Shown here: piece by piece, positions 3,813 through 52,300 of the stretch
How positions within the stretch are numbered: position 1 is the first letter of the stretch
Layout: every line of letters starts with the position of its first letter
Source: Naegleria gruberi
Taxonomy: Eukaryota
Assembly (NCBI GenBank): GCA_000004985.1
Contig: GG738865.1
Strand: one strand, 5' to 3'
DNA length: 64,000 bases
Translations under genes and position numbers: made by a program
Notes under the pieces: generated by a model
Database searches by the model: none
What the model was told of the DNA's origin: nothing
What the model saw: the letters and a program-made list of their open reading frames with translations, nothing else

Positions 3813-5122
3813 ATGAATAGTCGGGGGATAAAATCGAGCGGACTAGTAGGGAATGGTTCTACTTCTGCTCTTGTATTATTAATTATCAATGTGATGATGC
3901 TGATAGTAGCGATGAATAATTTCCTAATAATGACGGAAGCAAAATTTGAATTGATTGGACATAGAGGAGCTCCAAATTTGAGACCTGAACATACGTATGA
4001 ATCCTATTTATTGGCTTTTCAACAAGATGCTGATTATATTGAATTTGATGTAATGCCATCTAAAGATGGAGTCCTTATGGTGACTCATAGTTTTGAATTA
4101 ACTGGTAGGTACCTGATTGAAAATCTTTGAGTGTGCTAACTGTTTCTTCTATAGAAATTAGTAATGTTGCCTCTGTGAGCAAATTTTCGGATAGAAAGAA
4201 AACTAAAGTTGTCGATAAGAAATCATATTCTGGATGGTTTATTGAGGATTTTACTGCTTCTGAATTACAGGAATTGAGATTGAGAGAAAGATATCCACAA
4301 GCTAGAACTACCAAGTTTGATGACATCTTTGTCATGCCAACTCTTGAAACAGCACTTGACTATATAATTGCTATTACTCCAAATAATTCTTCTAAAATCA
4401 AGCTCTATATCGAAACAAAGCATCCAACATATTTTGCATCTGCTTTGAATGTCGATGTTAACCAATTGCTTGTTAATGTTTTGGAGAAGTACCATTATCT
4501 TGAATATACCATGTTCCAATCATTTGAAATTTCAAGTATGACTAGTATTCGTACAATTTTGTCCAACAAGAATATTCAACCATTGGGATATGTGATGCTT
4601 TTAGTGGCTAATGGTTCTCAAATTGATAATGGAAGAAATTTTGATGAGTACCTGACTGAGGAAGGTATTGATACAGCAAAGAGTGCTGGTATCACTGGTT
4701 TCGGACCAGCTTGGAAGATGGTTACTAAACCATGGGTTGAATCAGTTCACAAGAGAAATTTAATCATTCACCCATATACTTACAGACCTGAGGAATACTT
4801 TTTGAAACAAACCCCATATACCACCTTCTCTGATTTTATTAAGAGTGCTTTGGAACTTGGTGTTGATGGAGTTTTCACTGAGGACATTGATCAAACCAGA
4901 GCCATTGTTCTTGCCTATGAATCCAATTCAGTTGTGACTGTCTTGCTAATCGTTGCCTTTGTATTCGTTGGAGTTTTATTCATTGTCATTGCTGCCTCTG
5001 TTTTATCAGCTTACCTTTGCAAGAGAAAGACCAATCCATCATCATCAGCCACCCAAAACAGAGAAGAACGTGCAGGTCTTGCCCAACAATCCAATTCCTA
5101 TTCATATAATCAAGATGAATAA
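3813..5122 (+). CDS. Membrane-anchored glycerophosphodiester phosphodiesterase (GDPD family)
   Basis: Exons 3813..4104 and 4155..5122 (50-nt intron, GTAGGT..TATAG, phase 1). GDPD signature ELIGHRGAPNLRPEHTYESY..ADYIEFDV..SKDGVLMVTHSFELT, then EISNV..FIEDFTASELQELRL. N-terminal hydrophobic anchor and C-terminal TM segment (VVTVLLIVAFVFVGVLFIVIAASVL). Confidence 0.85.
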
Positions 5123-5251
5123 TTATTACCACTACTTTATAAATCTCACACAATAGATTTATCATCTTTTCAATTATAATGGATTCCAAGATTGACCTTT
5201 GATGTTTCAACTTGCTCCTCGAATTGGTTTGGGAACGCCCATTCATAATTA

Positions 5252-5262
5252 GGCGCCAAAAA
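5252..5262. promoter_or_regulatory. E2F-like element (ggcgccaaaaa = TTTTTGGCGCC on the other strand)
   Basis: Matches the TTTSSCGC consensus on the minus strand. About 180 nt upstream of ATG 5440, in the intergenic spacer. Confidence 0.35.
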
Positions 5263-5439
5263 CATTAAGACCTCAATAAACGCCTCTCCTACTATTTTAC
5301 TTGTTTGAAAAAACAAAACACTCATCATCTTCCATCCTCCGAACACTACCAATATACTCTGTGTTTTGTTCAATAACTTGGATTTTCCATTATTATTATT
5401 AATACAAATAATTAAATAATTTAATATAGTAGCTTAATC

Positions 5440-6057
5440 ATGCCAACACCATCACCAAAAACCAAAACTACGGAATATGAACCTCTCATCTATAGAATTG
5501 TTGCCTTCCTTCAGGTAATTCTGAGTTTGTTCTTCAACTTGACCTTAATTTGCTTAATTCCGTTCATGATTGTTGCCAATCACAGAACCAATCAGACCAA
5601 TACAGAACAATTAGTAGTCTTGGGTATATGTTTAATCATTTTAACGCTCATGTCCATGGCAAAGAATGTGGGCACAGCTTTGGCTTCATGGAAAGGAACC
5701 TTCATGGCCATTCAGGAAGGATTACAGAATCACATTACTCAACAAAATCTCAGAACGAAACGATTTGCCATGATTGGCTGTGGATGTGCCATTGCTCACA
5801 TGATACTTGGCCTCATTCTTTCCTATTTAGGAACTGTCTTTATTGTCATGCTTGTGGATAATTTGGATGATAGAGAATTCGATTGGGGAGTTGATAGTTT
5901 GGAATTTGATAATCCTTTTGCTTTTGTTGTGGCCATTGTCCATTTAATTTTCAATATTGCCGCATTTGGAGTATCAGTGTGGAATCTCATTTTGGTAACT
6001 CGTGAAATTGCCCACTATCACAATGTCAAACCAAGTGGTGAAGAAGAATCCCATTAA
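5440..6057 (+). CDS. Hypothetical 4-TM membrane protein
   Basis: ATG ORF of 205 aa with four clear hydrophobic segments. No family recognised. Confidence 0.6.
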   Translation: MPTPSPKTKTTEYEPLIYRIVAFLQVILSLFFNLTLICLIPFMIVANHRTNQTNTEQLVVLGICLIILTLMSMAKNVGTALASWKGTFMAIQEGLQNHITQQNLRTKRFAMIGCGCAIAHMILGLILSYLGTVFIVMLVDNLDDREFDWGVDSLEFDNPFAFVVAIVHLIFNIAAFGVSVWNLILVTREIAHYHNVKPSGEEESH

Positions 6058-6163
6058 ATAATTCTTAATCTCTTTCCTTTCACTTATTTTCTTATAACTT
6101 TATTGTAAACTCAAAGTGCAATTGCATCAAAGCATGCAAAAACGAAATTAAATAAAGAAAAAA

Positions 6164-7201
6164 ATGTTACATGAAGAAATACCACCTGTTACATCATCTC
6201 TGGAAAATCACAACAATTCATCCCGAATGTTATCCATGATGAAAAATTGTAAACTCACTCCCGAATTGATCTGTGAAGAATTTGAAGGTTTATTGCAACC
6301 TGAGAGAATTTTAAATGTCTACGTGTATGGAAGTAGATTGTATGGTAAATCGGCCGATAATGATTATTATACTATCAATCAAGATTCGGATTTTGATATC
6401 ATGCTTGTTTATGATTTTGATAATTTTCAGGCACCACAAAAGTTGACTTTCCTTTCGAATCAGAAGGAGAATAGAAATTCAGAGTTTTTCCAATTGGAAA
6501 TTCCTCTGTGGATGAAGAGAAGAGAGAGTTTAATTGAAAATAGTGTGGAAAATTCGAATAATGCATCAGAAAATCTCAACGAGATTGAGAAATTCACACC
6601 ACACATGGAGAGGCAAACACTTGAGAATGGTGAAATTATTTACAATTTCAAACAGAAACAATTTGGAGTGGATATGTGCATTTATACAAGAGAGCAATTT
6701 TTGAATCAATTGAAGAAACATCAATTTTCTGAATTGTTGGGTTTGTTTTTGGAGAGAAGCGATGAAGATTATCACAGTTTTATATTGAAAAAGACAGTTG
6801 ACTTTTCTGAAGAGTTTGAAAAGAGTGGAGTTGGAATTCAGTTGAGTAAATTGAGAGCTTCGCTTAGTCAATCAGCGTCTATGGTGTGGAAATGTTGTAG
6901 ATCCATGATGGAACACAGATTGGATTTAGATCCTCCAGAAGTAGAAGTATTCAAAGGCAAAAAGACACTTATTCACACTCTCAGAGTTTATCACTATGGA
7001 ATTCAAATTGCCAAGTTTGGAAAGATTGTGGATTGGCATGAATGTGACAAGTATTATGATGCAATATTCAAACATCCAGAAAAGTACAATTCCTTTAGAG
7101 AATTATCTCAACAATTCAACAAGATTAGACTTGCCTTACATGATGAATTTAGAAATCTTTGTCCAAAAGATGAGACACTAGCAGAGAATGATGAGGAATA
7201 A
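6164..7201 (+). CDS. Putative nucleotidyltransferase-fold protein (Pol-beta superfamily, RlaP/PF10127-like)
   Basis: ATG ORF of 345 aa. The N-terminal segment VYVYGSRLYGKSADN..DSDFDIMLVYD fits the hG[GS]...D.D minimal NTase motif, followed by a helical C-terminal region. Pattern-based call only. Confidence 0.4.
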   Translation: MLHEEIPPVTSSLENHNNSSRMLSMMKNCKLTPELICEEFEGLLQPERILNVYVYGSRLYGKSADNDYYTINQDSDFDIMLVYDFDNFQAPQKLTFLSNQKENRNSEFFQLEIPLWMKRRESLIENSVENSNNASENLNEIEKFTPHMERQTLENGEIIYNFKQKQFGVDMCIYTREQFLNQLKKHQFSELLGLFLERSDEDYHSFILKKTVDFSEEFEKSGVGIQLSKLRASLSQSASMVWKCCRSMMEHRLDLDPPEVEVFKGKKTLIHTLRVYHYGIQIAKFGKIVDWHECDKYYDAIFKHPEKYNSFRELSQQFNKIRLALHDEFRNLCPKDETLAENDEE

Positions 7202-7293
7202 ATTTTGTACAAATATATTATTGAGAAATTTAGCTAAAATTCGAGTTGTGAGAACGAATGAAACCTAGGATTGTTAAAGAATACTATTGATCA

Positions 7294-8591
7294 TTATTCT
7301 TCAGCAGTTTCGAGTTTTTGAATCAACTTTTCCAGAGTTTCCTTCTTCTTTGTGATTGCTTTTACAATGGCAGTTGTGTCATTTGGATCCAAAGCATCAG
7401 CAAGTTTCTTTTCCAATTCTTCAATTTCATTTGATTCTCTGTCCGCTATTGATTCAATTTCTTCCATACTGGCACGATTAATATCGTCATCTGTGAGGAA
7501 ACTTGTTGAAGCAAGATGTTTGCGAAGTTCTTCAGAAATTTGTTGAACTGGTTCAACAACTGCTGCAATTGGTTGAACAGCAGGTACTGATGATTCAACA
7601 ACACTTGTAGCTGTTGGTTGAGTAGTGATAGGAGTAGGTTCTGGTTGCTTCTTTGATTTTCTCTGTTGTTGAGATTGTTATTAAATCATGAAAATGGGAA
7701 TTTGATACTTACACCTCTCTTCTTCTTGGCAGGAGTACCATTTTGTGATTGTGAACTAGTGGCAACAGTGCTAGTAGTTGTGGATTTACTTGGAGTATTT
7801 GGTGGAGTTTCAATAATTACCGAATCAGATGAAACAGTTGTTGCTTTAGGTGAGTGAGCAATAGAATCAGCAACCATTGTGGATGATGACCTCTTCTTTC
7901 CTCGTCCTCTTCCTCTTCCAGAACTGCCTCTCTTTGATTCTTTAGTTTGTTGAGTTGAAATATGTTCCACATTTGATGATGATGAGTGTACTGCATGTTT
8001 AACACGATGATGTACATAATTATCATTTTCACTTTCAGTTTCACTTGCAAGAGAAAAGTCAAATTGATTATTTTTATCCTCAATTTCTCTTTCAATTCTA
8101 TTGAAAAAGATGATGTTAACAAAAAGTCTAATCAGATAAAAAGACATACATATTATAAACTCCAGATTGTGCAACTTGTTGAATTTTAACATCCACTTCA
8201 GAACGAAGTAATTCTGTTGAATGTCTACTCGTGGAAATGTGTAACATTTGTTGAAGTTGGGTAAGAACTTTTAACTTTTCCCAAGTAATTTCACCTTGTG
8301 CACGGAATGCACTAACCACACTACTGTATGCAGTTGTTTCTATTCAATAATGCACGTAAATATCATCCATACTTGTATCCAATAATACCTACCATATTGT
8401 CTTAAACGTTTAACGAGTTGTTTTTCAGATGACGTTATCAGAGAATCCGTATCAATCATCATGTTATCACTTCCATTTGTTGATTGTTGTTGGCTTAGAT
8501 TTGTTGTGTGATCGGTGACCAAATTATTCGATGCTGATGACGATGAAGCAGTGTTATTCACGCCCGACAACGCTTCTTGTTGTTGGCTCAT
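7294..8591 (-). CDS. ENT (EMSY N-terminal) domain protein with Ser/Thr-rich basic middle and acidic coiled C-terminus
   Basis: Four exons: 8393..8591, 8150..8339, 7713..8097, 7294..7662. Introns 8340..8392, 8098..8149 and 7663..7712 are 50-53 nt with GTAGGT/GTATGT/GTAAGT donors, and all phases are consistent. The spliced sequence YETTAYSSVVSAFRAQGEITWEKLKVLTQLQQMLHISTSRHSTELLR matches the ENT consensus. The track start at 8600 is TTG; ATG is at 8589..8591. Confidence 0.8.
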
Positions 8592-38554: not shown

Positions 38555-40092
<1,538 letters not shown>

Positions 40093-40396
40093 AAACATCA
40101 TGTTTAAAAATCTTTACAAAAATGTCCAAGCACTTCTTAACAAGTTGATTCATTACTCTTATCAAGTACTCCACTCCAGTAATTCCTTAATTGTCGGCCA
40201 GCTTAGAGGTTCATTTTCAGTGTGTAGATAACCTCCTTTAGATCTGCAGTAGATCTTTGCTCAATAAGGGCATCAGAAATGAGAGAATAAGGAATAAGGA
40301 TGGACTCCTTTATGGACAATTACGAAAAGATCATCTTTGGTTATTTCACATTGTTAATGTGTTGTTATATGAAATTGTGACAAAATTGTTTTTTAT

Positions 40397-41152
40397 TCAA
40401 GCAATAAGCCCTTGACTTTGCTTCCACTTTTGACCGTGAGAAGCTACTTGTGTTCTTGATCGTGTCTTGACATACTTTTCAGCAATGAGTTTCCAATTGT
40501 TACCACATGCCTCAAGACCTTCGAGGAAACGTTGATGTTCTTCCTCTGTCCACCATCCCTTATGACTACCATTCTTATTCTTGGCAGACAAATCACCCTT
40601 CACACTCGACTTGAGTCTCAGCTTACCAATCTTTTGTTTCGAGTAATTGTTAGCAATGTCAACTTCTTCATCGTCACCTTCAGATTCTTCACTTGGTGTC
40701 GTGGTATTTTGTTTGTTTCCTCTCTTAATACATGCAGAAGCAACCTTCTTGAGCACTTCAACATTTGGACATGTTGTTGATGAGACACTGGCAGTTGTTG
40801 TCGTTATGGTTGGATTCTTCTTCTGGAGCTCTTCCTTACTACTACTTGTCATTGTGGTTTCACTACTAGAAACACCACTCGAATGATGATCGTTGAATTG
40901 ACTAGGGGATGATGAATTACTACTTTTCACATCTGTGCCAATAATTGAGACATTGGAAGAATGGGAAAATCCAGATTCATCCATCAATACATTACTATTT
41001 GGAACGTTTCTAACTGGGCTCAATACAGGTGGTGCTGTAGTTGTAGTGGCTGTAATTGTTTTACAGGCAATTGGCACTGCACATGTCACTATCTGCTGAC
41101 TTGTGGCATGATTAAAAGCAACAATTCTTCCAGTAGTTGGGGAGGTATTCAA
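40397..41152 (-). CDS. Single-repeat Myb/SANT DNA-binding protein (SHAQKYF-like class), C-terminal part
   Basis: The C-terminal KGWWTEEEHQRFLEGLEACGNNWKLIAEKYVKTRSRTQVASHGQKWKQ is a Myb-like repeat. The ORF is open upstream to 41152 with no ATG until 40982..40984. It is in frame with ORF 41162..41776 across a single TAA. Confidence 0.75.
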   Translation of the reverse strand: MNTSPTTGRIVAFNHATSQQIVTCAVPIACKTITATTTTAPPVLSPVRNVPNSNVLMDESGFSHSSNVSIIGTDVKSSNSSSPSQFNDHHSSGVSSSETTMTSSSKEELQKKNPTITTTTASVSSTTCPNVEVLKKVASACIKRGNKQNTTTPSEESEGDDEEVDIANNYSKQKIGKLRLKSSVKGDLSAKNKNGSHKGWWTEEEHQRFLEGLEACGNNWKLIAEKYVKTRSRTQVASHGQKWKQSQGLIA

Positions 41153-45011: not shown

Positions 45012-45083
45012 TCCCGTGTGGTCCAATGGCTAAGATACCTGGCTCTCACCCAGGAGATCCGGGTTCAATTCCCGGCACGGGAG
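45012..45083 (+). tRNA. tRNA-Glu (anticodon CUC)
   Basis: 72-nt cloverleaf folded by hand. The acceptor TCCCGTG pairs with CACGGGA. The anticodon stem CCTGG pairs with CCAGG around loop CTCTCAC (anticodon CTC at 45045..45047). The T-arm CCGGG pairs with CCCGG around loop TTCAATT. Discriminator G. It is similar to eukaryotic tRNA-Glu. Confidence 0.93.
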
Positions 45084-45345: not shown

Positions 45346-46695
45346 ATGTTGGGTCAGTCATCATCTTTAAAAAAAATGGCAACTAAAGTAACCGAAACTC
45401 TTGTTGTGCTTTTGTTGTTATTCTTCGCTACTGCTTCTGGCATTAACGCATCATCACCTGCGGAGCCAGCATTCAAAAGTCAATTACGTTCATGTTTTGA
45501 AGCAAATAGAAATACCGAATGTTTGGCCACACAATCATCTTGGTCTTCATGTGGAGGTTCAGTTTATTCTTCATATCAACTTGCACTCTCCATCTCAATG
45601 AATTGTATGAGAAGTGTCTGTGGAAGTCAAAATAGTTTATGTTGCAATACCTATTGTACAATGTATGGTTTATCTGGATATGATCATTCAGTTTGTTTCA
45701 ATAAGTGTTTCAATGGATATACTGGTTCAGTTGTTGGTGCTGCAACTTTGATGAAAACAATCAAGAGTAGTTTGGATACCAATGTTGATTATGTTCCTCC
45801 TGCCACAGCTCAAAAGAAGGACGATGAAACCAAAGTCTATTGTGATATTCCATGTAATTCAGAATTTGCTTTCTATTCCACAACTGGTAAACAACCAAGT
45901 ATTTTAAATGGTGGTTTGAAGGCATTGTTGGCTTCTAATACCAAGACTAATACTTTGGCTGCTAAGAAAAAGCTCATTTCTTCTTGGTCAACCAAGGTTG
46001 GTTCCTCTAAGCCATCATCCTCATCCTCCTCCTCACGTAAGAGCATCAGCAGCATTAAAAGCATCATTGGAAGAAGTAATAGTGGTTACAACAAGGCCAT
46101 TTCAAAGAGCATCTCAAAATACCTTGGCTTCAAACCAGTTAAACAAATTAATAGTGATCTGGTCTATAAGAGACTTGTTAAATTTGTTTCAAGCATTCCA
46201 AGTCTTGGATACATCTTGAGAGGTATTCGTGATAAGAAAACCAGAACCTACCTTACAAGAGGTTACAAATTCATTCAAGCTGCTAGAAAACAAGTCTATC
46301 CACAAAAAGCATTTGCAATCTATGATGGTAAAGTATTGAATGTGAAAGCCACAGTTCAATTGGGTAATCCAGCATTGGTTAAGCAGAGAAGTACCATTTT
46401 CCCAATTCCATTCAATTCATTGACTCCATCTTCACTTTCAAAGAAATCCTTTTTCAATTCCAGTGTTAAACATAATCAAATCTGTACTGGTACAGCTATT
46501 GCCAAAGTGGAATATTATCGTAGATCTCGTATCACTTGTAAAAAGATCAAGTCATGGATTAGTGGAGCTTCAAAGATTAATCCAAAGAATATTTATCAAG
46601 TCAACAAGTTCCTCTTCCTTGTTTATAATCAATGTAAGAAAGCTAAAGCTACTTGTGTTGTTCCATTTGTTGAAGCAATCAAAACAACTGATTAA
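45346..46695 (+). CDS. Secreted cysteine-rich protein, paralogue A of an unrecognised family
   Basis: 449-aa ORF. An alternative ATG at 45376 gives MATKVTETLVVLLLLFFATASG, a signal peptide. It has a 10-Cys N-module (AFKSQLRSCFEANRNTEC..SSCGG..MNCMRSVCGSQNSLCCNTYC..SVCFNKC), a Ser/Lys-rich variable middle and a 4-Cys C-module (NQIC..C..NQC..C). Confidence 0.8.
   Translation: MLGQSSSLKKMATKVTETLVVLLLLFFATASGINASSPAEPAFKSQLRSCFEANRNTECLATQSSWSSCGGSVYSSYQLALSISMNCMRSVCGSQNSLCCNTYCTMYGLSGYDHSVCFNKCFNGYTGSVVGAATLMKTIKSSLDTNVDYVPPATAQKKDDETKVYCDIPCNSEFAFYSTTGKQPSILNGGLKALLASNTKTNTLAAKKKLISSWSTKVGSSKPSSSSSSSRKSISSIKSIIGRSNSGYNKAISKSISKYLGFKPVKQINSDLVYKRLVKFVSSIPSLGYILRGIRDKKTRTYLTRGYKFIQAARKQVYPQKAFAIYDGKVLNVKATVQLGNPALVKQRSTIFPIPFNSLTPSSLSKKSFFNSSVKHNQICTGTAIAKVEYYRRSRITCKKIKSWISGASKINPKNIYQVNKFLFLVYNQCKKAKATCVVPFVEAIKTTD
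45448..45756. repeat. Arm 1 of an inverted repeat (N-module coding sequence of paralogue A)
   Basis: By hand alignment to the reverse complement of 48699..49010, I found 7 substitutions plus one 3-nt indel region over about 309 nt. Confidence 0.9.
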
Positions 46696-46904
46696 ATTTT
46701 TGTAATTCAATAACTTTTTACAAATATAATATTAATAATATTGAAAAATACTTATTACAATTACAGGTCTGTTACAAAATCTTTTAATGGATAGGAATAG
46801 CATTTTTAAAATACTCGCTCAAACTATATGCAAATTAAACAGTGTACTTTTCACCAAATGTGTATGTGACTCAAAACATCCAACTGTCACACCAGTAAAA
46901 AAAA

Positions 46905-47894
46905 ATGACATTGTCATCCAAACAAATTGTCGTTGTGTTAATTATTGTTGGATTCTGTGTTTCTTACACATTGGCTTCTTCTGCCAGCGAACCAGCATTC
47001 AAAAGTCAATTACGTTCATGTTTTGAAGGAAACAGAAACACAGAATGCATAGTCAATCAAGGAAGCTGGAATTCTTGTGGTCGTTCAGTTTATTCTTCCT
47101 ATCAATTAGCTGTTTCCATTTCAATGAATTGTATGAGAAGTGTTTGTGGTAGTCAAAATGGTTTATGTTGTAATACTTATTGTTCAATGTTTGGTTTATC
47201 TGGAAGTGATCATTCGAATTGTTTCTCCTCATGTTATAATTCATACAGGCCATCGACAAATGGTGGTTCATCTTTTGGTGGAAATATTCCTGCAGCTAGT
47301 GATGCTTTAACTGGTTCTGTATCTTGTTCTATTCCATGCGCTGCTGCTTTCTCCTTCTATGAAAATAAAGTAGCCGAAAGTGTGGCCAAAAAACCAGCAG
47401 AAGTCAAGACATTCAAAACTTTGGTCAAGAATTTACAATCTGGCAAACCAATCAAAAAATCAAATCCTGGCTACACAATCACCTCTGCCAAGACTTTGTC
47501 AACCAGCAGCCCTAGTTCTGCAACCTATTTCACAGCACTTAAACCAAAAGTTGTCCTGAAGGGAAGTGAACATAATCAAGTCTTACGTACCTCTATTGAA
47601 GAAGCTGTTCCAACAAACTTGGACTCGGCTCAATTTTACAATTCTCAAGTGGCATCCAATCAAATTTGTTCCAATTCAATGAAAGATGTTGTAAAGGTTT
47701 CAATTTTGAAGAATACCAAAATTGAATGTTCTAAATTGTTGCAATGGATTAAGAATGATAAGACAATTGCTCCTGAAAATTTGGAAAATGTTTATAATTT
47801 CATGTTGGTTTTGCATCAAAAGTGTTCTGCTTTGCCAAATAGTAAATGTGTCATGCCAAATGTTGGATCCATCAAGCTCACTAACACTAAATAA
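46905..47894 (+). CDS. Secreted cysteine-rich protein, paralogue B
   Basis: 329 aa with signal peptide MTLSSKQIVVVLIIVGFCVSYTLA. It has the same 10-Cys N-module (about 80% nt identity to A) and 4-Cys C-module, with a different middle. Confidence 0.8.
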   Translation: MTLSSKQIVVVLIIVGFCVSYTLASSASEPAFKSQLRSCFEGNRNTECIVNQGSWNSCGRSVYSSYQLAVSISMNCMRSVCGSQNGLCCNTYCSMFGLSGSDHSNCFSSCYNSYRPSTNGGSSFGGNIPAASDALTGSVSCSIPCAAAFSFYENKVAESVAKKPAEVKTFKTLVKNLQSGKPIKKSNPGYTITSAKTLSTSSPSSATYFTALKPKVVLKGSEHNQVLRTSIEEAVPTNLDSAQFYNSQVASNQICSNSMKDVVKVSILKNTKIECSKLLQWIKNDKTIAPENLENVYNFMLVLHQKCSALPNSKCVMPNVGSIKLTNTK

Positions 47895-47969
47895 ATTGTG
47901 GATCTATCAATTAATAACTAATTTTTATTAGAAAGCACCCAAATCATAAATTTCCAAAATAAAATTATT

Positions 47970-49088
47970 TTAAAGAGTGTCAGTATTCAAATTAATTCTT
48001 CTAAACATTGGAACAACACATTGTTTAGACTTCTTTGGAATGAGAGATCTACACTTATTATGAACAATCATCATGAATTTGTAAACAGTAAGCAAATTAT
48101 TTGGTGAAATTTCTGAAACTTCCTTCATCCAACGTTGAATCTTGTTACAATTTACTCTAGATCTCTTATAATAGGTAACTTCAACTGTCTTTCCAGTATT
48201 GGCACAGATTTGATTTTTACCAACTTGGCTGCTTTTCAAAACGGGATTCAAAGGGACAACCTTATCAAGTGAAATGTCAAAAACTTGAAGTCTGTCACGA
48301 GTTACTTGAATAACATTGGAAATCATCTTTTTATCAGTTTTTCCTGATGATTTAGAGGTTGATTTAGTGACCTTTCCATTCTTAATAGTTGTGAGTTTAG
48401 TTTTTTTCACAAAAGACGAAATGAAAAGTTTCTTCTTTTTGCCCAATACTGAAACTCCACCATTTCCACTTGCTGTTCCAGTAGTACTATTTGAACCATT
48501 AATTTGAGAAAGGAGAGTTCTCAAGAAATTTCTTTCCTTTCTTGTTGGTTGTTCATTGGCAAAATAAAAAGCATAAGTAGCATCACATGAAACAGAACAT
48601 TTGACAATGGCTTTATCATCAGTGGTGGCACTTTTTGGAACAAAGTCAGAGTTATCATCGAATGGGATGGAAGCATAAGCAATAGAAGTAGAAATTGGTT
48701 TCATCAAAGTTGCAGCAGCAGAAACAACTGAACCAGTATATCCATTGAAACACTTATTGAAACAAACTGAATGATCATATCCAGATAAACCATACATTGT
48801 ACAATAAGTATTGCAACATAAACTATTTTGACTTCCACAAACACTTCTCATACAATTCATTGAAATGGAGAGTGCAAGTTGATATGAAGAATAAACTGAA
48901 CCTCCACATGAAGACCAAGATGATTGTGTGGCTAAACATTCGGTATTTCTATTTGCTTCAAAACATGAACGTAATTGACTTTTGAATGCTGGTTCCGCTG
49001 GAGATGATGCATTGACAAAAGATGAAGATGTGAGAAGGGCTGCCAACAAGACGAAACATGCCAAAACTAGTGGATTGAATCTTGTCAT
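47970..49088 (-). CDS. Secreted cysteine-rich protein, paralogue C
   Basis: The track start at 49124 is GTG; the first ATG is at 49086..49088 (MTRFNPLVLACFVLLAALLTSSSFVNA). Its N-module is nearly identical to A, its middle is unique and its C-module is related. Confidence 0.8.
   Translation of the reverse strand: MTRFNPLVLACFVLLAALLTSSSFVNASSPAEPAFKSQLRSCFEANRNTECLATQSSWSSCGGSVYSSYQLALSISMNCMRSVCGSQNSLCCNTYCTMYGLSGYDHSVCFNKCFNGYTGSVVSAAATLMKPISTSIAYASIPFDDNSDFVPKSATTDDKAIVKCSVSCDATYAFYFANEQPTRKERNFLRTLLSQINGSNSTTGTASGNGGVSVLGKKKKLFISSFVKKTKLTTIKNGKVTKSTSKSSGKTDKKMISNVIQVTRDRLQVFDISLDKVVPLNPVLKSSQVGKNQICANTGKTVEVTYYKRSRVNCNKIQRWMKEVSEISPNNLLTVYKFMMIVHNKCRSLIPKKSKQCVVPMFRRINLNTDTL
48699..49010. 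repeat. Arm 2 of the inverted repeat (N-module coding sequence of paralogue C)
   Basis: See arm 1. The arms are about 2.9 kb apart in opposite orientation. Confidence 0.9.
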
Positions 49089-49305: not shown

Positions 49306-52300
49306 ATGAGTAAAAACATATGGTTGCCGCCACTTTCGCTATCATCTCTGCAGAGAAATGATGGGAAGAACATCATGTTTGACACTCAGAAAGTAATCAA
49401 GCCGACCACCTGGTTGTATATAATGATGATACTGCTGATATTGTTAATGAATAGTGGAGGAGTTGTGAGATGTGGAAATGTTGTGGAAGTGGATGCTGAG
49501 GAAGTGAGGCAGTTGGATTTATATTTGAAAAAATCAAAACCTGATTTGGAAAATTCTCAGCTAGCTTTATTGGCATTTAAGGAGACGAGTCAAATGCTTA
49601 TACTCACCAAGACATTGTCATCCTTGTCCATCACACCAAGAACAATATTTTACTCTGCAGGGTTTATCGGAAATACTATTGTTCAATTGAATGCAAGTGA
49701 AATCAAATTCACCTCCTTGGCTAATGTATTTAACAATTCAACAAGACCATACAAAGTTGTTGATAGGCTTACATCATTATGCTCTTCTACTCTTTCTCAA
49801 TTATATCAGAACAACACCTTTATTCCAAATTATTATATTTGTTTTTTCAAAACAACACTCACATCAGAGAATAGAGTTTTCTTCTCAACAACAAGTGAAG
49901 GATTCAGATGTTTAAAACTAAATTCGGATGGGGATGTAATAACCAAGGATGTTTCTAAGGGATTTATTGAAGATTTTGCTACCTCATTATGTGTTATAAC
50001 CATAATATTTATAGCCCTTCTGTGGGTACAAGGATCATTTAAAAGGAGAATTATTGATACAAAGAGATATCCCTTTACCAATTATTACTTTGGAAACGAT
50101 ACTGATTGGAACTCTTCAACTTTTTCGGATCTTTCAGTAACTCTTAGACCAATATTTCCATTCTTTAAACATTTTTCCAATCAGTTTGACAAGCTTTATA
50201 AACTGATATTCAGATCAATTCAAAACAAAGTGGACCAGGAACATATTAGGAAGTATAAGAAATTTGGCTCTTCAACACTGCTGAAATACCAATTATTCTT
50301 CGACTTTTTCCTCTTTATAGTTATTAGTTGCTTATCAATGGTGCAGTTATTTGTTCCTTCTGTACTATATTTCCCAAATTTTATTCAAATACCTATTAAT
50401 TTTGACCTTGGGAATGACGAAACCTTCACAAGTTATTGGATAGGAGGGGCTGATTTTGTACCTATCAGTTTGGGTTTTTGGTTAATATCCCTCACTTTGA
50501 TGATATTGGGAATAATTTTGTTAATAGTTACTTCTAGTTCAAAAGAAAAGATGATGTATTGGAGCACAAACTCTTTGCCAGACACCAACATTTTGGTTTT
50601 CACTGATGCAATCTTCAAAATTATTTTCATAGTCTTGATTAATGTGATAATCATTTTACTACCGTTCTGGACATTTACCATTAAGGGAGTTCTTATGGTG
50701 GTTATTACAATAGCATCTATTTTCTATGGGAGTCAACAAATTTTAATTCCAACAGAGAAGGTTATTCACGCTATTCATGATGGAAATTATAAGATGGTTG
50801 TTGCCTTCTTGATGTTTGCATATTTTAAGGAACTTCTAGTGATCATACCATTTTTTATTCAGATATTCATGGTGGCCGAAACTATATTTGGGCTAGTTTG
50901 GAGCTTGATTCTTTCCTTTGTTGCAAACAACAGCAAGCTTTCCTTGATTGGTATTTTTGGTATTGTAATTAATTCTGCAACAAGTTTACTTCAAGACTTA
51001 CTACAGCCATCCAGAGTTACCAGGAAAAAGATTGTGGAAAGGTCAGATACATTCGTTTTTCCCTCTCTAACAAAGACCAGCACACAATTCATCCTTGATA
51101 ATGTCGCTGCAAAATATGGTGGCATTATTAATACCTACTCTAAACTGGTAGAAAGTAATGAGATGGTGGATTATACATACAAGGATATTCTCTCATTAAA
51201 TGACAACTTGGAAGAACTTAAGGACATTACAAGAAAAAGAAGTCAGTCTGTTGGAAAATCTGAAAACGGTGAAGCTAAGCTAGCAGCAACAACTATTGAA
51301 AAAATTCACAACCCTGTTAACATCAAATTCGAAAAAAATGAAGACAAAAACGAAGAGGAGCTAAAAACAAGATATACGGAGATCAATGATAGGCCAAAGT
51401 ACATGCATGTTCTCTTCAAGAAAGAAATTGCCTTACTCGTTAGAGGCATCTTCCTTTCAACGCAAGAGAAGAAAAATGAAAAATTGAGAGTAATCTTTAA
51501 GAGAGGAGAGAGGCTTTATACTCCATTGTTGAATACAGACATCAGAAGAATCCATCACAATTTAGTGGGTAGAGTCAAGATAGCAACAGGAAATCTGAGT
51601 AATTATTTAGTAGTAATTTTGATTGCAATGATTATTTTCTTGTCTTTTACTTATTCTGGTGCTGAAAGTGATGGTATGGACATTATGTCAAATATGGCTA
51701 TTGTTATTTCAATCTTTATTCCACAACTTTTTGGAAGATTGGATGAAGGACAAGTTGATGAACTATTCGAAAGAAGAATTGAGGAAACTATCCTTTTAAC
51801 CAAGAGAGATCTTGCAAAGAAACTTGACTTACCAGAGAAGGATCTCAATTTTTGCATTTTCAATTTTCAAAACGATTCAGATATTAGTAACTTTTTAGAG
51901 CACAACACCCCAGCAGTGTCTGAAACTATTGGAAGAAAAATGTAAGTATATTTTAACGAATTGTTTTACTTGAATCAAATGAAAGATTGGAACATTGGGA
52001 AAGTGCTTCAACAAATGGATTTATTACAGCTCAAAAATTCAAGCCACTCATGCTTATTGTATGGGATGAAACCCTTAAAATCAATGCAAAGAAGGGCACT
52101 GCTTCCGCTACAAATGACTATCTCAAGACTCATAGCCAATTCTTGACATCATTTTCAAACATAATTTATTGTATTAGTAATTTTGAGGCTGACTCCTTTG
52201 TGAGTGCTTACGAATTCATTCACGCTGTGGAGCTTCTCAAAAAATCAATCACAAGAAAGGAAGAAGATCAATGCTCAGATATGGATATAACATTTGCATT

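What the first reader, a model, noticed from the sequence alone, without database searches (positions are those of the whole stretch)
45346..49088. Three-gene cluster of an unrecognised secreted cysteine-rich family with a selectively conserved inverted module
Three adjacent genes share one architecture: A at 45346..46695 (+), B at 46905..47894 (+) and C at 47970..49088 (-). Each has a signal peptide, a ~95-aa N-module with 10 invariant Cys (SCFE.NRNTEC..SCG.SVYSSYQLA.SISMNCMRSVCGSQN.LCCNTYC..GLSG.DHS.CF..C), an unalignable Ser/Lys/Thr-rich middle, and a ~70-aa C-module with 4 Cys (NQIC...C...W......P.N...VY.F....H.KC....C).

The N-modules of A and C form a ~310-nt inverted repeat (45448..45756 against 48699..49010). 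Aligning them by hand I found 7 substitutions, all synonymous third-position changes (tca/tct, cct/cca, gag/gaa, ttg/tta, atc/att, gtc/gtt, acc/act), plus one in-frame 3-nt indel region. The signal peptides and middles flanking the repeat are unrelated.

That pattern points to strong purifying selection or gene conversion confined to one module of a mosaic gene. I do not recognise the Cys spacing as any named domain.
Basis: seen in the sequence. Interest (0 to 1): 0.7.

Follow-up and report, generated by a model that had tools for sequence, protein, structure and literature searches.

The report
Bacterial-derived secreted domain in Naegleria genes
Three neighbouring genes of the amoeba Naegleria gruberi encode secreted proteins whose cysteine-rich front end was captured from bacteria, and two of the copies have recently overwritten each other at that end by gene conversion; what the domain does is still unknown.

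Summary
Three adjacent Naegleria gruberi genes (A, B, C) share one layout: signal peptide, 10-Cys N-module, S/T/K-rich middle, 4-Cys C-module. The N-modules of A and C form a ~300-nt inverted repeat, 97% identical, with 7 differences, all synonymous.

The interpretation needs two corrections.

1. The near-identity is gene conversion, not selection alone. Between A and C, dS is 0.11 in the N-module and 1.0 or more elsewhere in the same genes. Purifying selection has acted since (7 of 7 changes synonymous).

2. The N-module is not an orphan. It is 63-74% identical to stand-alone ~115-aa secreted 8-Cys proteins of Acidovorax and related uncultured bacteria. Wherever enough flanking sequence is available, those proteins sit in an operon with a divergent apolipoprotein N-acyltransferase (Lnt) paralogue. 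So the module most likely entered Naegleria by horizontal transfer and was fused to a Naegleria-only C-terminal part.

N. lovaniensis has one such gene in a related neighbourhood, with an intron inside the module. Its N-module groups with a different bacterial clade, which hints at two acquisitions.

No Pfam, NCBIfam, PDB or fold match exists, so function is open. My guess, at low confidence, is a ligand-binding module for a bacterial envelope component.

The parts
45346..46695 (+). Gene A (NAEGRDRAFT_67035, XP_002677700.1); the NCBI model starts at 45376
   Evidence: ORF; 100% identical to P0001; accession
45346..45450 (+). A: leader and predicted signal peptide, cut predicted after INA
   Evidence: Hydrophobic core with KD 3.48 and an A-x-A-like site; the predicted cut aligns with the bacterial signal-peptide cut
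45451..45720 (+). A: N-module, a 90-aa 10-Cys helical domain of bacterial ancestry
   Evidence: AF2 pLDDT 81, six helices
45445..45761 (+). Left arm of the inverted repeat = gene-conversion tract in A
   Evidence: I1 plus I3; identity profile
45835..45876 (+). A: conserved V.C...C.....FY mini-motif (2 Cys), also present in B, C and N. lovaniensis
45721..46473 (+). A: basic S/T/K-rich, poorly conserved middle
   Evidence: S+T 23%, K+R 17%; dN 0.86 against C
46474..46692 (+). A: C-module, 4 Cys, found only in Naegleria
   Evidence: the only hit outside N. gruberi is N. lovaniensis
46905..47894 (+). Gene B (XP_002677701.1, mis-annotated as 'nucleoporin')
   Evidence: orthologue on the environmental contig L020
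46977..47246 (+). B: N-module, 79% aa identical to A/C and up to 74% to bacterial P0011
47319..47360 (+). B: CxxxC..FY mini-motif
47658..47891 (+). B: C-module
47970..49088 (-). Gene C (NAEGRDRAFT_48735, XP_002677800.1), convergent with A and B
47973..48215 (-). C: C-module
48564..48605 (-). C: CxxxC..FY mini-motif
48738..49007 (-). C: N-module, protein sequence identical to A's over these 90 aa
48694..49013 (-). Right arm of the inverted repeat = gene-conversion tract in C
   Evidence: I1 plus I3
49008..49088 (-). C: predicted signal peptide, cut predicted after VNA

Best explanation
A, B and C are paralogous Naegleria gruberi genes for soluble, basic, secreted proteins built from two kinds of parts.

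Part 1: a ~90-aa disulfide-stabilised all-helical N-module. It descends from a rare bacterial family of stand-alone ~115-aa secreted 8-Cys proteins. That family is found in Acidovorax and other uncultured bacteria. In every contig with enough flanking sequence it lies in an operon with a divergent but catalytically intact Lnt-like N-acyltransferase. The module entered the Naegleria lineage by horizontal transfer.

Part 2: a Naegleria-only C-terminal extension, made of a CxxxC..FY motif, a low-complexity S/T/K-rich linker and a 4-Cys C-module.

After duplication in the N. gruberi lineage the genes diverged to saturation everywhere except the N-module, which is under strong purifying selection. 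Because only that module kept enough DNA identity, ectopic recombination between the convergently oriented copies A and C recently copied one module onto the other. This was non-reciprocal gene conversion with a tract of about 315 nt. Seven synonymous changes have accumulated since.

Shown: the architecture, the homology to bacterial proteins, the bacterial operon context, integration in the eukaryotic genome, and module-restricted low dS.

Inferred: the direction of transfer, the conversion mechanism, secretion, and two disulfide pairs.

Guess (about 20% confidence): the module binds a conserved non-protein ligand of the bacterial envelope, lipid- or lipoprotein-related. The bacterivorous amoeba would deploy it extracellularly on a basic, probably glycosylated stalk.
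For: Identity of organism and genes.

Gene conversion:
- Nei-Gojobori for A vs C: N-module dS 0.113 and dN 0.004. C-module dS 1.0 and dN 0.51. Middle dS 2.4. Signal peptide dS 3.2.
- In the same module, A/C vs B gives dS 0.56-0.77, so constraint alone does not produce 0.11.
- Fisher contrast of A-C vs A-B differences between the two modules: p = 4e-10.
- Boundaries are sharp.
- 7 of 7 changes are synonymous; P = 2e-5 to 2e-4 under neutrality.

Bacterial homologues:
- The exhaustive profile search of 1.84e9 proteins found 5 hits.
- The word-indexed searches found about 15 clusters among 5.8e9 proteins.
- Identity is 63-74% to the high-GC clade.

Bacterial context:
- The operon is lipoprotein, then 8-Cys protein, then Lnt-like protein. 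It was seen with both partners in L001, L004, L007, L013, L015 and L018. L003, L005, L006 and L008-L012 show the same tight three-gene arrangement, but their contigs end before the downstream gene can be identified.
- Cultured hosts: Acidovorax lacteus JCM 31890 and Acidovorax sp. DW039.
- Of the two most divergent members, P0008 is also Lnt-linked (L014). P0006's contig (L017) ends within the second downstream gene, before any Lnt-like gene could appear.
- Lnt and 8-Cys divergences run in parallel.
- Lnt catalytic motifs are kept. Scores lie at the TIGR00546 cut-off.

Not contamination:
- Window GC is 0.31-0.39 throughout, and N-module GC3 is 0.15-0.21 against 0.70-0.80 in the high-GC bacterial homologues.
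- The flanking genes are eukaryotic (F-box; TTL 91% identical to N. lovaniensis).
- The N. lovaniensis module contains a GT..AG intron.
- An independent environmental contig reproduces the inner cluster.

Structure: AF2 pLDDT 81, six helices.

Cys covariation: C2+C3 were gained together; C8+C9 were lost together.

Soluble: there is no hydrophobic segment other than the signal peptide; pI 9.1-9.9.
Against: - No expression, proteomic or read-level data were available.
- Secretion rests on heuristics only.
- The direction of transfer is inferred from distribution and operon conservation, not from a rooted tree.
- Only two Naegleria species carry the gene. N. fowleri gave no hit, so sampling on the eukaryotic side is thin.
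- The C-module model was unusable (pLDDT 48).
- The ML test used home-made code on 90 sites.
Confidence: 0.75

Rival explanations
1. The A/C identity is due only to very strong purifying selection on the N-module, with no gene conversion.
For: The module is highly constrained. It is 63-74% identical between bacteria and amoeba. dN = 0 between B and its environmental orthologue. 7 of 7 A-C changes are synonymous.
Against: Protein-level selection does not hold synonymous sites. A-C dS is 0.11 in the module, against 0.56-0.77 for A/C vs B in the same module and 1.0 or more in the rest of A and C. The relative-divergence contrast gives p = 4e-10.
Confidence: 0.03
2. The inverted repeat is an assembly artefact: one N-module was placed twice.
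For: Short-read assemblers can misplace repeats. The independent contig L020 stops before both arms, as contigs often do at repeats.
Against: The arms differ at 7 sites plus an in-frame 3-nt indel. Each is joined in frame to its own distinct signal peptide and middle region. Both resulting ORFs are intact. The inner 2 kb is reproduced collinearly by L020.
Confidence: 0.02
3. The transfer went the other way. The domain arose in Naegleria or Heterolobosea, and bacteria living with amoebae captured it.
For: The unrooted tree cannot give direction. The domain is rare in bacteria: one hit among 185,579 GTDB species genomes. In L014 the 8-Cys gene lies in a 40% GC block next to a 54% GC Lnt-like gene.
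Against: The two Naegleria lineages attach to different bacterial clades. A eukaryotic origin therefore needs at least two transfers into bacteria, each followed by independent linkage to the same divergent Lnt subfamily. Bacterial members span 29-90% identity and 45-67% GC, and the Lnt partner co-diverges with them. The L014 low-GC block includes two other bacterial secreted genes, so it is not specific to the 8-Cys gene.
Confidence: 0.1
4. There was a single ancient transfer into the Naegleria ancestor. On this reading the apparent affinity of the N. lovaniensis module for a different bacterial clade is an artefact of fast evolution or long-branch attraction.
For: The two species' genes share the Naegleria-only C-terminal part. 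They also lie near the same TTL/Myb pair, as expected for orthologues. N. lovaniensis, P0006 and P0008 are the three longest branches.
Against: NJ bootstrap is 0.99 for {N. lovaniensis, P0006, P0008} and 0.00 for Naegleria monophyly. ML with gamma rates rejects three monophyly topologies by dlnL 30-57, z 3.2-4.6, RELL 0. Several specific residues are shared by N. lovaniensis and P0006/P0008 (alignment).
Confidence: 0.35

Closest known systems
Unnamed bacterial family of hypothetical proteins: Acidovorax sp. DW039 ACDW_15400 (BEU95835.1 / WP_338798210.1), the Acidovorax lacteus JCM 31890 locus on NZ_BAABEX010000011, and metagenomic members P0004-P0022
   Same: The same ~90-aa domain, 63-74% identical to the N. 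gruberi modules for the high-GC clade. The 8-Cys framework C-x36-C-x4-C-x6-CC-x3-C-x12-C-x3-C is shared. The mature N-terminus SSPAEPAFKSQL follows directly after a signal peptide in both.
   Different: The bacterial proteins are stand-alone at 112-145 aa. In every contig with enough flank they are in an operon with a lipoprotein or small secreted proteins and a divergent Lnt paralogue. They have no C-terminal extension. They have 8 Cys (some 6), not 10. Their function is equally unknown.
Naegleria lovaniensis C9374_014248 (XP_044541618.1)
   Same: The full architecture is shared: signal peptide, N-module, CxxxC..FY motif, K/S-rich middle and 4-Cys C-module. The gene lies within about 7 kb of the same TTL/Myb gene pair.
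   Different: It is a single gene, not a cluster. It has an intron inside the N-module. Its N-module is only 40% identical to N. gruberi's and groups with a different bacterial clade. It has 8 Cys.
Concerted evolution by gene conversion between inverted paralogues, such as arm-to-arm conversion in human Y-chromosome palindromes and inverted Hsp70 pairs in Drosophila (from my own general knowledge)
   Same: Near-identity is maintained between inverted copies, with depressed synonymous divergence and sharp tract boundaries. The inverted orientation avoids deletion by crossover.
   Different: Here the tract covers only one domain of otherwise saturated genes, and the domain is of bacterial origin.
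Small helical disulfide-rich secreted lipid binders: saposin-like proteins (naegleriapores), plant nsLTPs and oomycete elicitins (analogy only, from my own general knowledge)
   Same: All are ~90-100 aa, all-helical, with 3-5 disulfides, and secreted. Elicitin-like proteins also carry S/T-rich C-terminal extensions.
   Different: There is no sequence match (Pfam). No fold match was found in the PDB searches. The Cys spacing differs. This is a resemblance in kind, not membership.

Membership tests
Bacterial Lnt-linked 8-Cys secreted protein family (unnamed) | Significant full-length similarity of the ~90-aa domain | tested here: met
   Profile E-values of 1e-29 to 1e-40. Identity is 63-74% to the high-GC clade.
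Bacterial Lnt-linked 8-Cys secreted protein family (unnamed) | Conserved 8-Cys framework | tested here: met
   All 8 positions are present in A, B and C, plus an extra C2+C3 pair.
Bacterial Lnt-linked 8-Cys secreted protein family (unnamed) | N-terminal signal peptide cut immediately before SS[PA].EP | tested here: inconclusive
   The hydrophobic core and small-residue site align with the bacterial ones. No dedicated predictor or experiment was available.
Bacterial Lnt-linked 8-Cys secreted protein family (unnamed) | Genomic linkage to a divergent Lnt-like acyltransferase | tested here: not met
   tblastn of the Lnt-like and lipoprotein partners against the window and against L002 found nothing. 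The Naegleria genes carry the domain without the system.
Any named Cys-rich or other domain (Pfam-A, NCBIfam, PADLOC, PHROGs) | A match above threshold to a curated profile | tested here: not met
   No hits for A, B or C at E <= 1 in Pfam. No meaningful hits in NCBIfam, PADLOC or PHROGs for the members tested: A, B and bacterial homologues.
Nucleoporin (the NCBI name of gene B) | Nucleoporin domains or FG repeats; nucleocytoplasmic protein | tested here: not met
   No Pfam hit. The protein has a signal-peptide-like N-terminus and 16 Cys. The name is unsupported.
Gene conversion tract | Synonymous divergence depressed inside the tract relative to the flanks of the same gene pair | tested here: met
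   dS 0.113 inside against 1.0-3.2 outside.
Gene conversion tract | Discordant relationships between the tract and the rest of the gene | tested here: met
   In the N-module A and C are identical in protein, with B 79% identical to them. In the C-module all three are about equally distant. Fisher p = 4e-10.
Gene conversion tract | Confirmation by reads or population samples | not testable with these tools
   No reads are available, and L020 stops short of the arms.
Prokaryote-to-eukaryote horizontal gene transfer | Eukaryotic sequences nested among diverse prokaryotic ones; narrow eukaryotic distribution | tested here: met
   Only Naegleria among eukaryotes in the searched collections. Trees.
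Prokaryote-to-eukaryote horizontal gene transfer | Genuine integration in the eukaryotic genome, not contamination | tested here: met
   Host-like GC3, eukaryotic neighbours, fusion to a eukaryote-only C-terminal part, a spliceosomal intron in N. lovaniensis, and an independent contig.

The most novel reading that the evidence does not exclude
The same rare bacterial domain was captured twice, from two different bacterial lineages. It ended up at the head of the same Naegleria gene family in a shared genomic neighbourhood, so an older module was functionally replaced by a newer bacterial one. That would imply sustained selection on a bacterivorous amoeba to keep an up-to-date copy of a prey-derived envelope-associated module, for example to recognise, mimic or interfere with the Lnt-linked system of its prey. 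Within-cluster gene conversion would then spread the current version among paralogues.
Probability: 0.25. Interest if true: 0.8.

Novelty: new variant of a known kind. Interest (0 to 1): 0.6.

Why it matters
Bacteria-to-protist gene transfer and gene conversion between paralogues are both well known. What is unusual here is the combination.

- A very rare, uncharacterised bacterial secreted domain is conserved at about 70% identity across domains of life.
- It is fused to a lineage-specific eukaryotic tail and expanded into a cluster.
- It is homogenised domain-by-domain by conversion.
- It apparently comes from different bacterial sources in two Naegleria species.

The finding gives a concrete handle on an undescribed bacterial operon (lipoprotein, 8-Cys protein, divergent Lnt paralogue). 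It also bears on how a bacterivorous amoeba recruits prey genes for extracellular functions. Finally, it corrects a mis-annotation: gene B is not a nucleoporin.

Tried and rejected
Searches that found nothing:
- Pfam, NCBIfam, PADLOC and PHROGs scans of the Naegleria proteins tested and of the bacterial operon partners gave no informative hit, apart from Lnt for the acyltransferase.
- PDB profile search: only noise, E >= 0.25.
- The AFDB50 library was unavailable.
- Viral contigs and plasmids carried no copy, so no vehicle for transfer was identified.
- The JGI metagenome scan added only two more Comamonadaceae-type loci and no new eukaryotic or divergent members.
- There are no remnants of the lipoprotein or Lnt genes near the Naegleria genes.
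- There is no convincing shared upstream motif among A, B and C.
- Literature searches for the gene IDs, for Naegleria cyst-wall Cys-rich proteins, for Naegleria-Acidovorax links and for Lnt paralogues returned nothing relevant.
- An exact look-up of gene B's product found no contig.

Model that failed: the AF2 model of the C-module was too poor to use (pLDDT 48).

Ideas considered and dropped:
- Phospholipase A2, hevein/chitin-binding, hydrophobin, nsLTP, saposin and SLT-lysozyme. The Cys spacing or catalytic motifs do not fit (my own reading of the sequences), and no profile or fold match supports them.
- A GPI or transmembrane anchor. There is no C-terminal hydrophobic segment.
- The tRNA-Glu upstream of A as a shared integration landmark. 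It is absent from the N. lovaniensis locus.

Full report
**1. What is in the sequence**

The window is Naegleria gruberi. The three ORFs are 100% identical to its predicted proteins:
- A = NAEGRDRAFT_67035 (XP_002677700.1)
- B = XP_002677701.1, labelled 'nucleoporin'
- C = NAEGRDRAFT_48735 (XP_002677800.1)

The ORFs lie at 45346-46695 (+), 46905-47894 (+) and 47970-49088 (-).
- A hydrophobic leader.
- A 90-aa N-module with 10 invariant Cys.
- A poorly conserved basic S/T/K-rich middle.
- A ~75-aa C-module with 4 invariant Cys.

The repeat finder reports arms 45445-45743 and 48715-49013, 299 nt at 97%. A 32-nt extension follows a 3-nt indel. The seven differences are all third-position and synonymous.

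**2. Conversion or selection?**

Nei-Gojobori estimates per module settle this.

| Region | A vs C dS | A vs C dN |
|---|---|---|
| N-module | 0.113 | 0.004 |
| C-module | 1.0 | 0.51 |
| Middle | 2.4 | 0.86 |
| Signal peptide | 3.2 | 0.91 |

- The same N-module compared with B has dS 0.56-0.77 and dN about 0.2. Constraint on the module therefore does not by itself produce dS 0.11.
- The excess similarity of A to C, relative to B, is specific to the N-module (Fisher p = 4e-10).
- DNA identity rises from 0.57 or less to 0.97 or more, and falls again, within about 60 nt at each end.

This is the signature of a recent non-reciprocal transfer, that is gene conversion, of about 315 nt between the two convergently oriented genes.

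Since then purifying selection has acted. 7 of 7 changes are synonymous, which has probability 2e-5 to 2e-4 under neutrality.

The tract need not be 'selectively' confined. It coincides with the only part of the genes that retains enough nucleotide identity for homologous recombination.

B also shows a 37-nt run identical to A (P = 0.01 by codon shuffling), which hints at older, shorter exchanges. At 6 of the 7 A-C differences B has C's base. I cannot explain that asymmetry.

**3. Not an artefact**

- The arms differ from each other, and each is joined in frame to its own unique flanks.
- An independent environmental contig (L020, ENA ERZ929261) is 97.9% identical and collinear with window 46434-48486. 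It covers the tail of A, all of B and the tail of C. It does not reach the arms.
- Between B and this orthologue the N-module has 0 nonsynonymous and 2 synonymous changes. The middle has 4 and 5.

**4. The N-module is of bacterial ancestry**

The first word-indexed search returned only the three paralogues. An exhaustive profile search of 1.84 billion representatives found five relatives. Iterated searches then brought the family to about 15 clusters among 5.8 billion proteins.

One relative is Naegleria lovaniensis XP_044541618.1, which has the complete architecture.

All the others are 112-145-aa stand-alone proteins, each with its own signal peptide. In every case examined they are encoded on bacterial contigs:
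- ABC-transporter, GGDEF and aminotransferase neighbours; 45-67% GC.
- Two are from cultured genomes: Acidovorax lacteus JCM 31890, the only hit among 185,579 GTDB species, and Acidovorax sp. DW039.

In the high-GC clade the gene is the middle of a tight operon:
- a ~300-aa lipoprotein with a lipobox (L..GCGG)
- the 8-Cys protein
- a ~525-aa Lnt-like protein

This was seen with both partners in L001, L004, L007, L013, L015 and L018. Shorter contigs show the same arrangement but are cut off.

The divergent member P0008 (L014) is followed by two small secreted proteins and again an Lnt-like gene. P0006's short contig (L017) shows the same two small proteins but ends before any Lnt-like gene could appear.

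On the Lnt-like partners:
- They keep the Glu-Lys-Cys motifs WPE, K..LVPF.E and LCFE.
- All score at the edge of the TIGR00546 cut-off, 110-134 bits against 132.9. They form a distinct subfamily.
- Their divergence parallels that of the 8-Cys proteins, as expected if the pair is inherited together.

The N. gruberi modules are 63-74% identical to the high-GC clade, including the mature N-terminus SSPAEPAFKSQLRSCFE.

**5. Genuine eukaryotic genes**

- The window is 31-39% GC throughout.
- N-module GC3 is 0.15-0.21, against 0.70-0.80 in the high-GC bacterial homologues.
- The neighbours are an F-box protein and a TTL gene 91% identical to that of N. lovaniensis.
- The module is fused to a C-terminal part found only in Naegleria.
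- The N. lovaniensis gene has a canonical GT..AG phase-0 intron of 115 nt inside the module.
- No remnants of the bacterial partner genes are present.
- No viral or plasmid copy was found.

The most economical reading is transfer from bacteria to Naegleria. The arguments for that direction are:
- deep bacterial diversity
- conserved operon linkage in both bacterial clades
- a eukaryotic distribution limited to one genus

The reverse direction would need at least two captures by bacteria, each followed by linkage to the same Lnt subfamily. I give it about 10%.

**6. One transfer or two?**

The N. lovaniensis gene and the N. gruberi cluster share the Naegleria-only C-terminal part. Both also lie 5-7 kb from the same TTL/Myb pair, and both have a further shared ORF nearby. 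Gene order is rearranged.

Yet the N. lovaniensis module is only 40% identical to N. gruberi's, and it is closest to P0006 at 48%.

- NJ bootstrap gives 0.99 for {N. lovaniensis, P0006, P0008} and 0.00 for Naegleria monophyly.
- A maximum-likelihood comparison rejects three monophyly topologies by dlnL 30-57 (z 3.2-4.6, RELL 0). It used my own code, a BLOSUM62-derived rate matrix with four gamma categories, 18 taxa and 90 sites.

These are the three longest branches, the alignment is short and the implementation is simple. I therefore treat 'two bacterial sources' as favoured (about 55%), not established. The possibilities are:
- replacement by a second transfer
- two old acquisitions with differential loss
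- an artefact

**7. Structure and function**

With a 16-sequence alignment AlphaFold2 gives a confident model of the N-module: pLDDT 81.3, about 90 in the core, pTM 0.70. It has six helices, and the last 12 residues are disordered.

Cysteine presence and absence covary:
- C2 and C3 occur together, and only in N. gruberi.
- C8 and C9 are lost together in four bacterial members.

This predicts two of the disulfides. It also shows that the ancestral domain had 8 Cys.

The mature Naegleria proteins have no other hydrophobic segment. Their pI is 9.1-9.9, and the middle region is 22-23% S+T and 11-17% K+R. They look like soluble, secreted or wall-associated, probably glycosylated proteins.

About 70% identity between a periplasmic or secreted bacterial protein and an amoebal one argues for a ligand common to both settings, not a lineage-specific protein partner. 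Given the Lnt linkage, my working guess is a lipid- or lipoprotein-related envelope ligand. This is inference only, at about 20% confidence.

**8. Comparison with what is known**

As a kind of event, this is prokaryote-to-protist HGT followed by domain fusion, tandem or inverted duplication and concerted evolution. All of these are known processes.

As a family, it belongs with an unnamed and uncharacterised bacterial family. It meets the sequence and Cys-framework criteria but lacks the operon context. It is not a member of any curated domain family or solved fold that I could test. The 'nucleoporin' label on B is unsupported.

**9. Verdict**

- The finding is a new variant of known kinds of process, with a truly uncharacterised domain and an intriguing, not yet secure, hint of repeated capture from bacteria.
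- Interest is moderate to high.

Noticed in passing
window 45012-45083 (+): A tRNA-Glu (anticodon CTC) gene lies about 260 bp upstream of gene A, between the F-box gene and the cluster. No tRNA is present in the N. lovaniensis locus L002.
   Followed up: partly
window 46905-47894: The public annotation of gene B as 'nucleoporin' has no support. It has no Pfam hit, a signal-peptide-like N-terminus and 16 Cys, and is a clear paralogue of A and C.
   Followed up: yes
L001 5062-7943; L013 ~5060-7972; L015 1218-4137; L014 340-3471: There is an undescribed bacterial operon of lipoprotein (or two small secreted proteins), 8-Cys secreted protein and a divergent but catalytically intact Lnt paralogue. 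It occurs in Acidovorax lacteus, Acidovorax sp. DW039 and uncultured relatives. No match was found in Pfam, NCBIfam, PADLOC or PHROGs, except Lnt itself for the acyltransferase.
   Followed up: partly
L014 340-1906: The three small secreted genes form a ~40% GC block next to a 54% GC Lnt-like gene. This is a compositional island of unknown meaning.
   Followed up: no
window 45451-45720, 46977-47246, 48738-49007: GC3 of the N-modules (0.15-0.21) is lower than in the rest of the same genes (0.24-0.30) and in neighbouring genes (0.33-0.36). This could be codon bias from high expression or a conversion-related bias. It is unexplained.
   Followed up: no
window 45456-45651: At 6 of the 7 A-C differences inside the converted tract, B carries C's base. 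Either nearly all changes since conversion fell on A, or C has received short patches from B.
   Followed up: partly
window 38640-40720 vs L002 339-3252: The TTL gene (91% aa identity) and an adjacent Myb gene are shared with the N. lovaniensis locus. They lie on the opposite side of the Cys-rich gene or genes, which indicates a local rearrangement between the species.
   Followed up: partly
window 49306-51945 (+): An 879-aa ORF with many hydrophobic segments and no Pfam hit lies directly next to gene C.
   Followed up: no
window 45445-45761 and 48694-49013: A crossover between the inverted arms would invert the ~3-kb segment between them. That would swap promoters and signal peptides between the bodies of A and C. 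No data here show whether such isomers exist.
   Followed up: no
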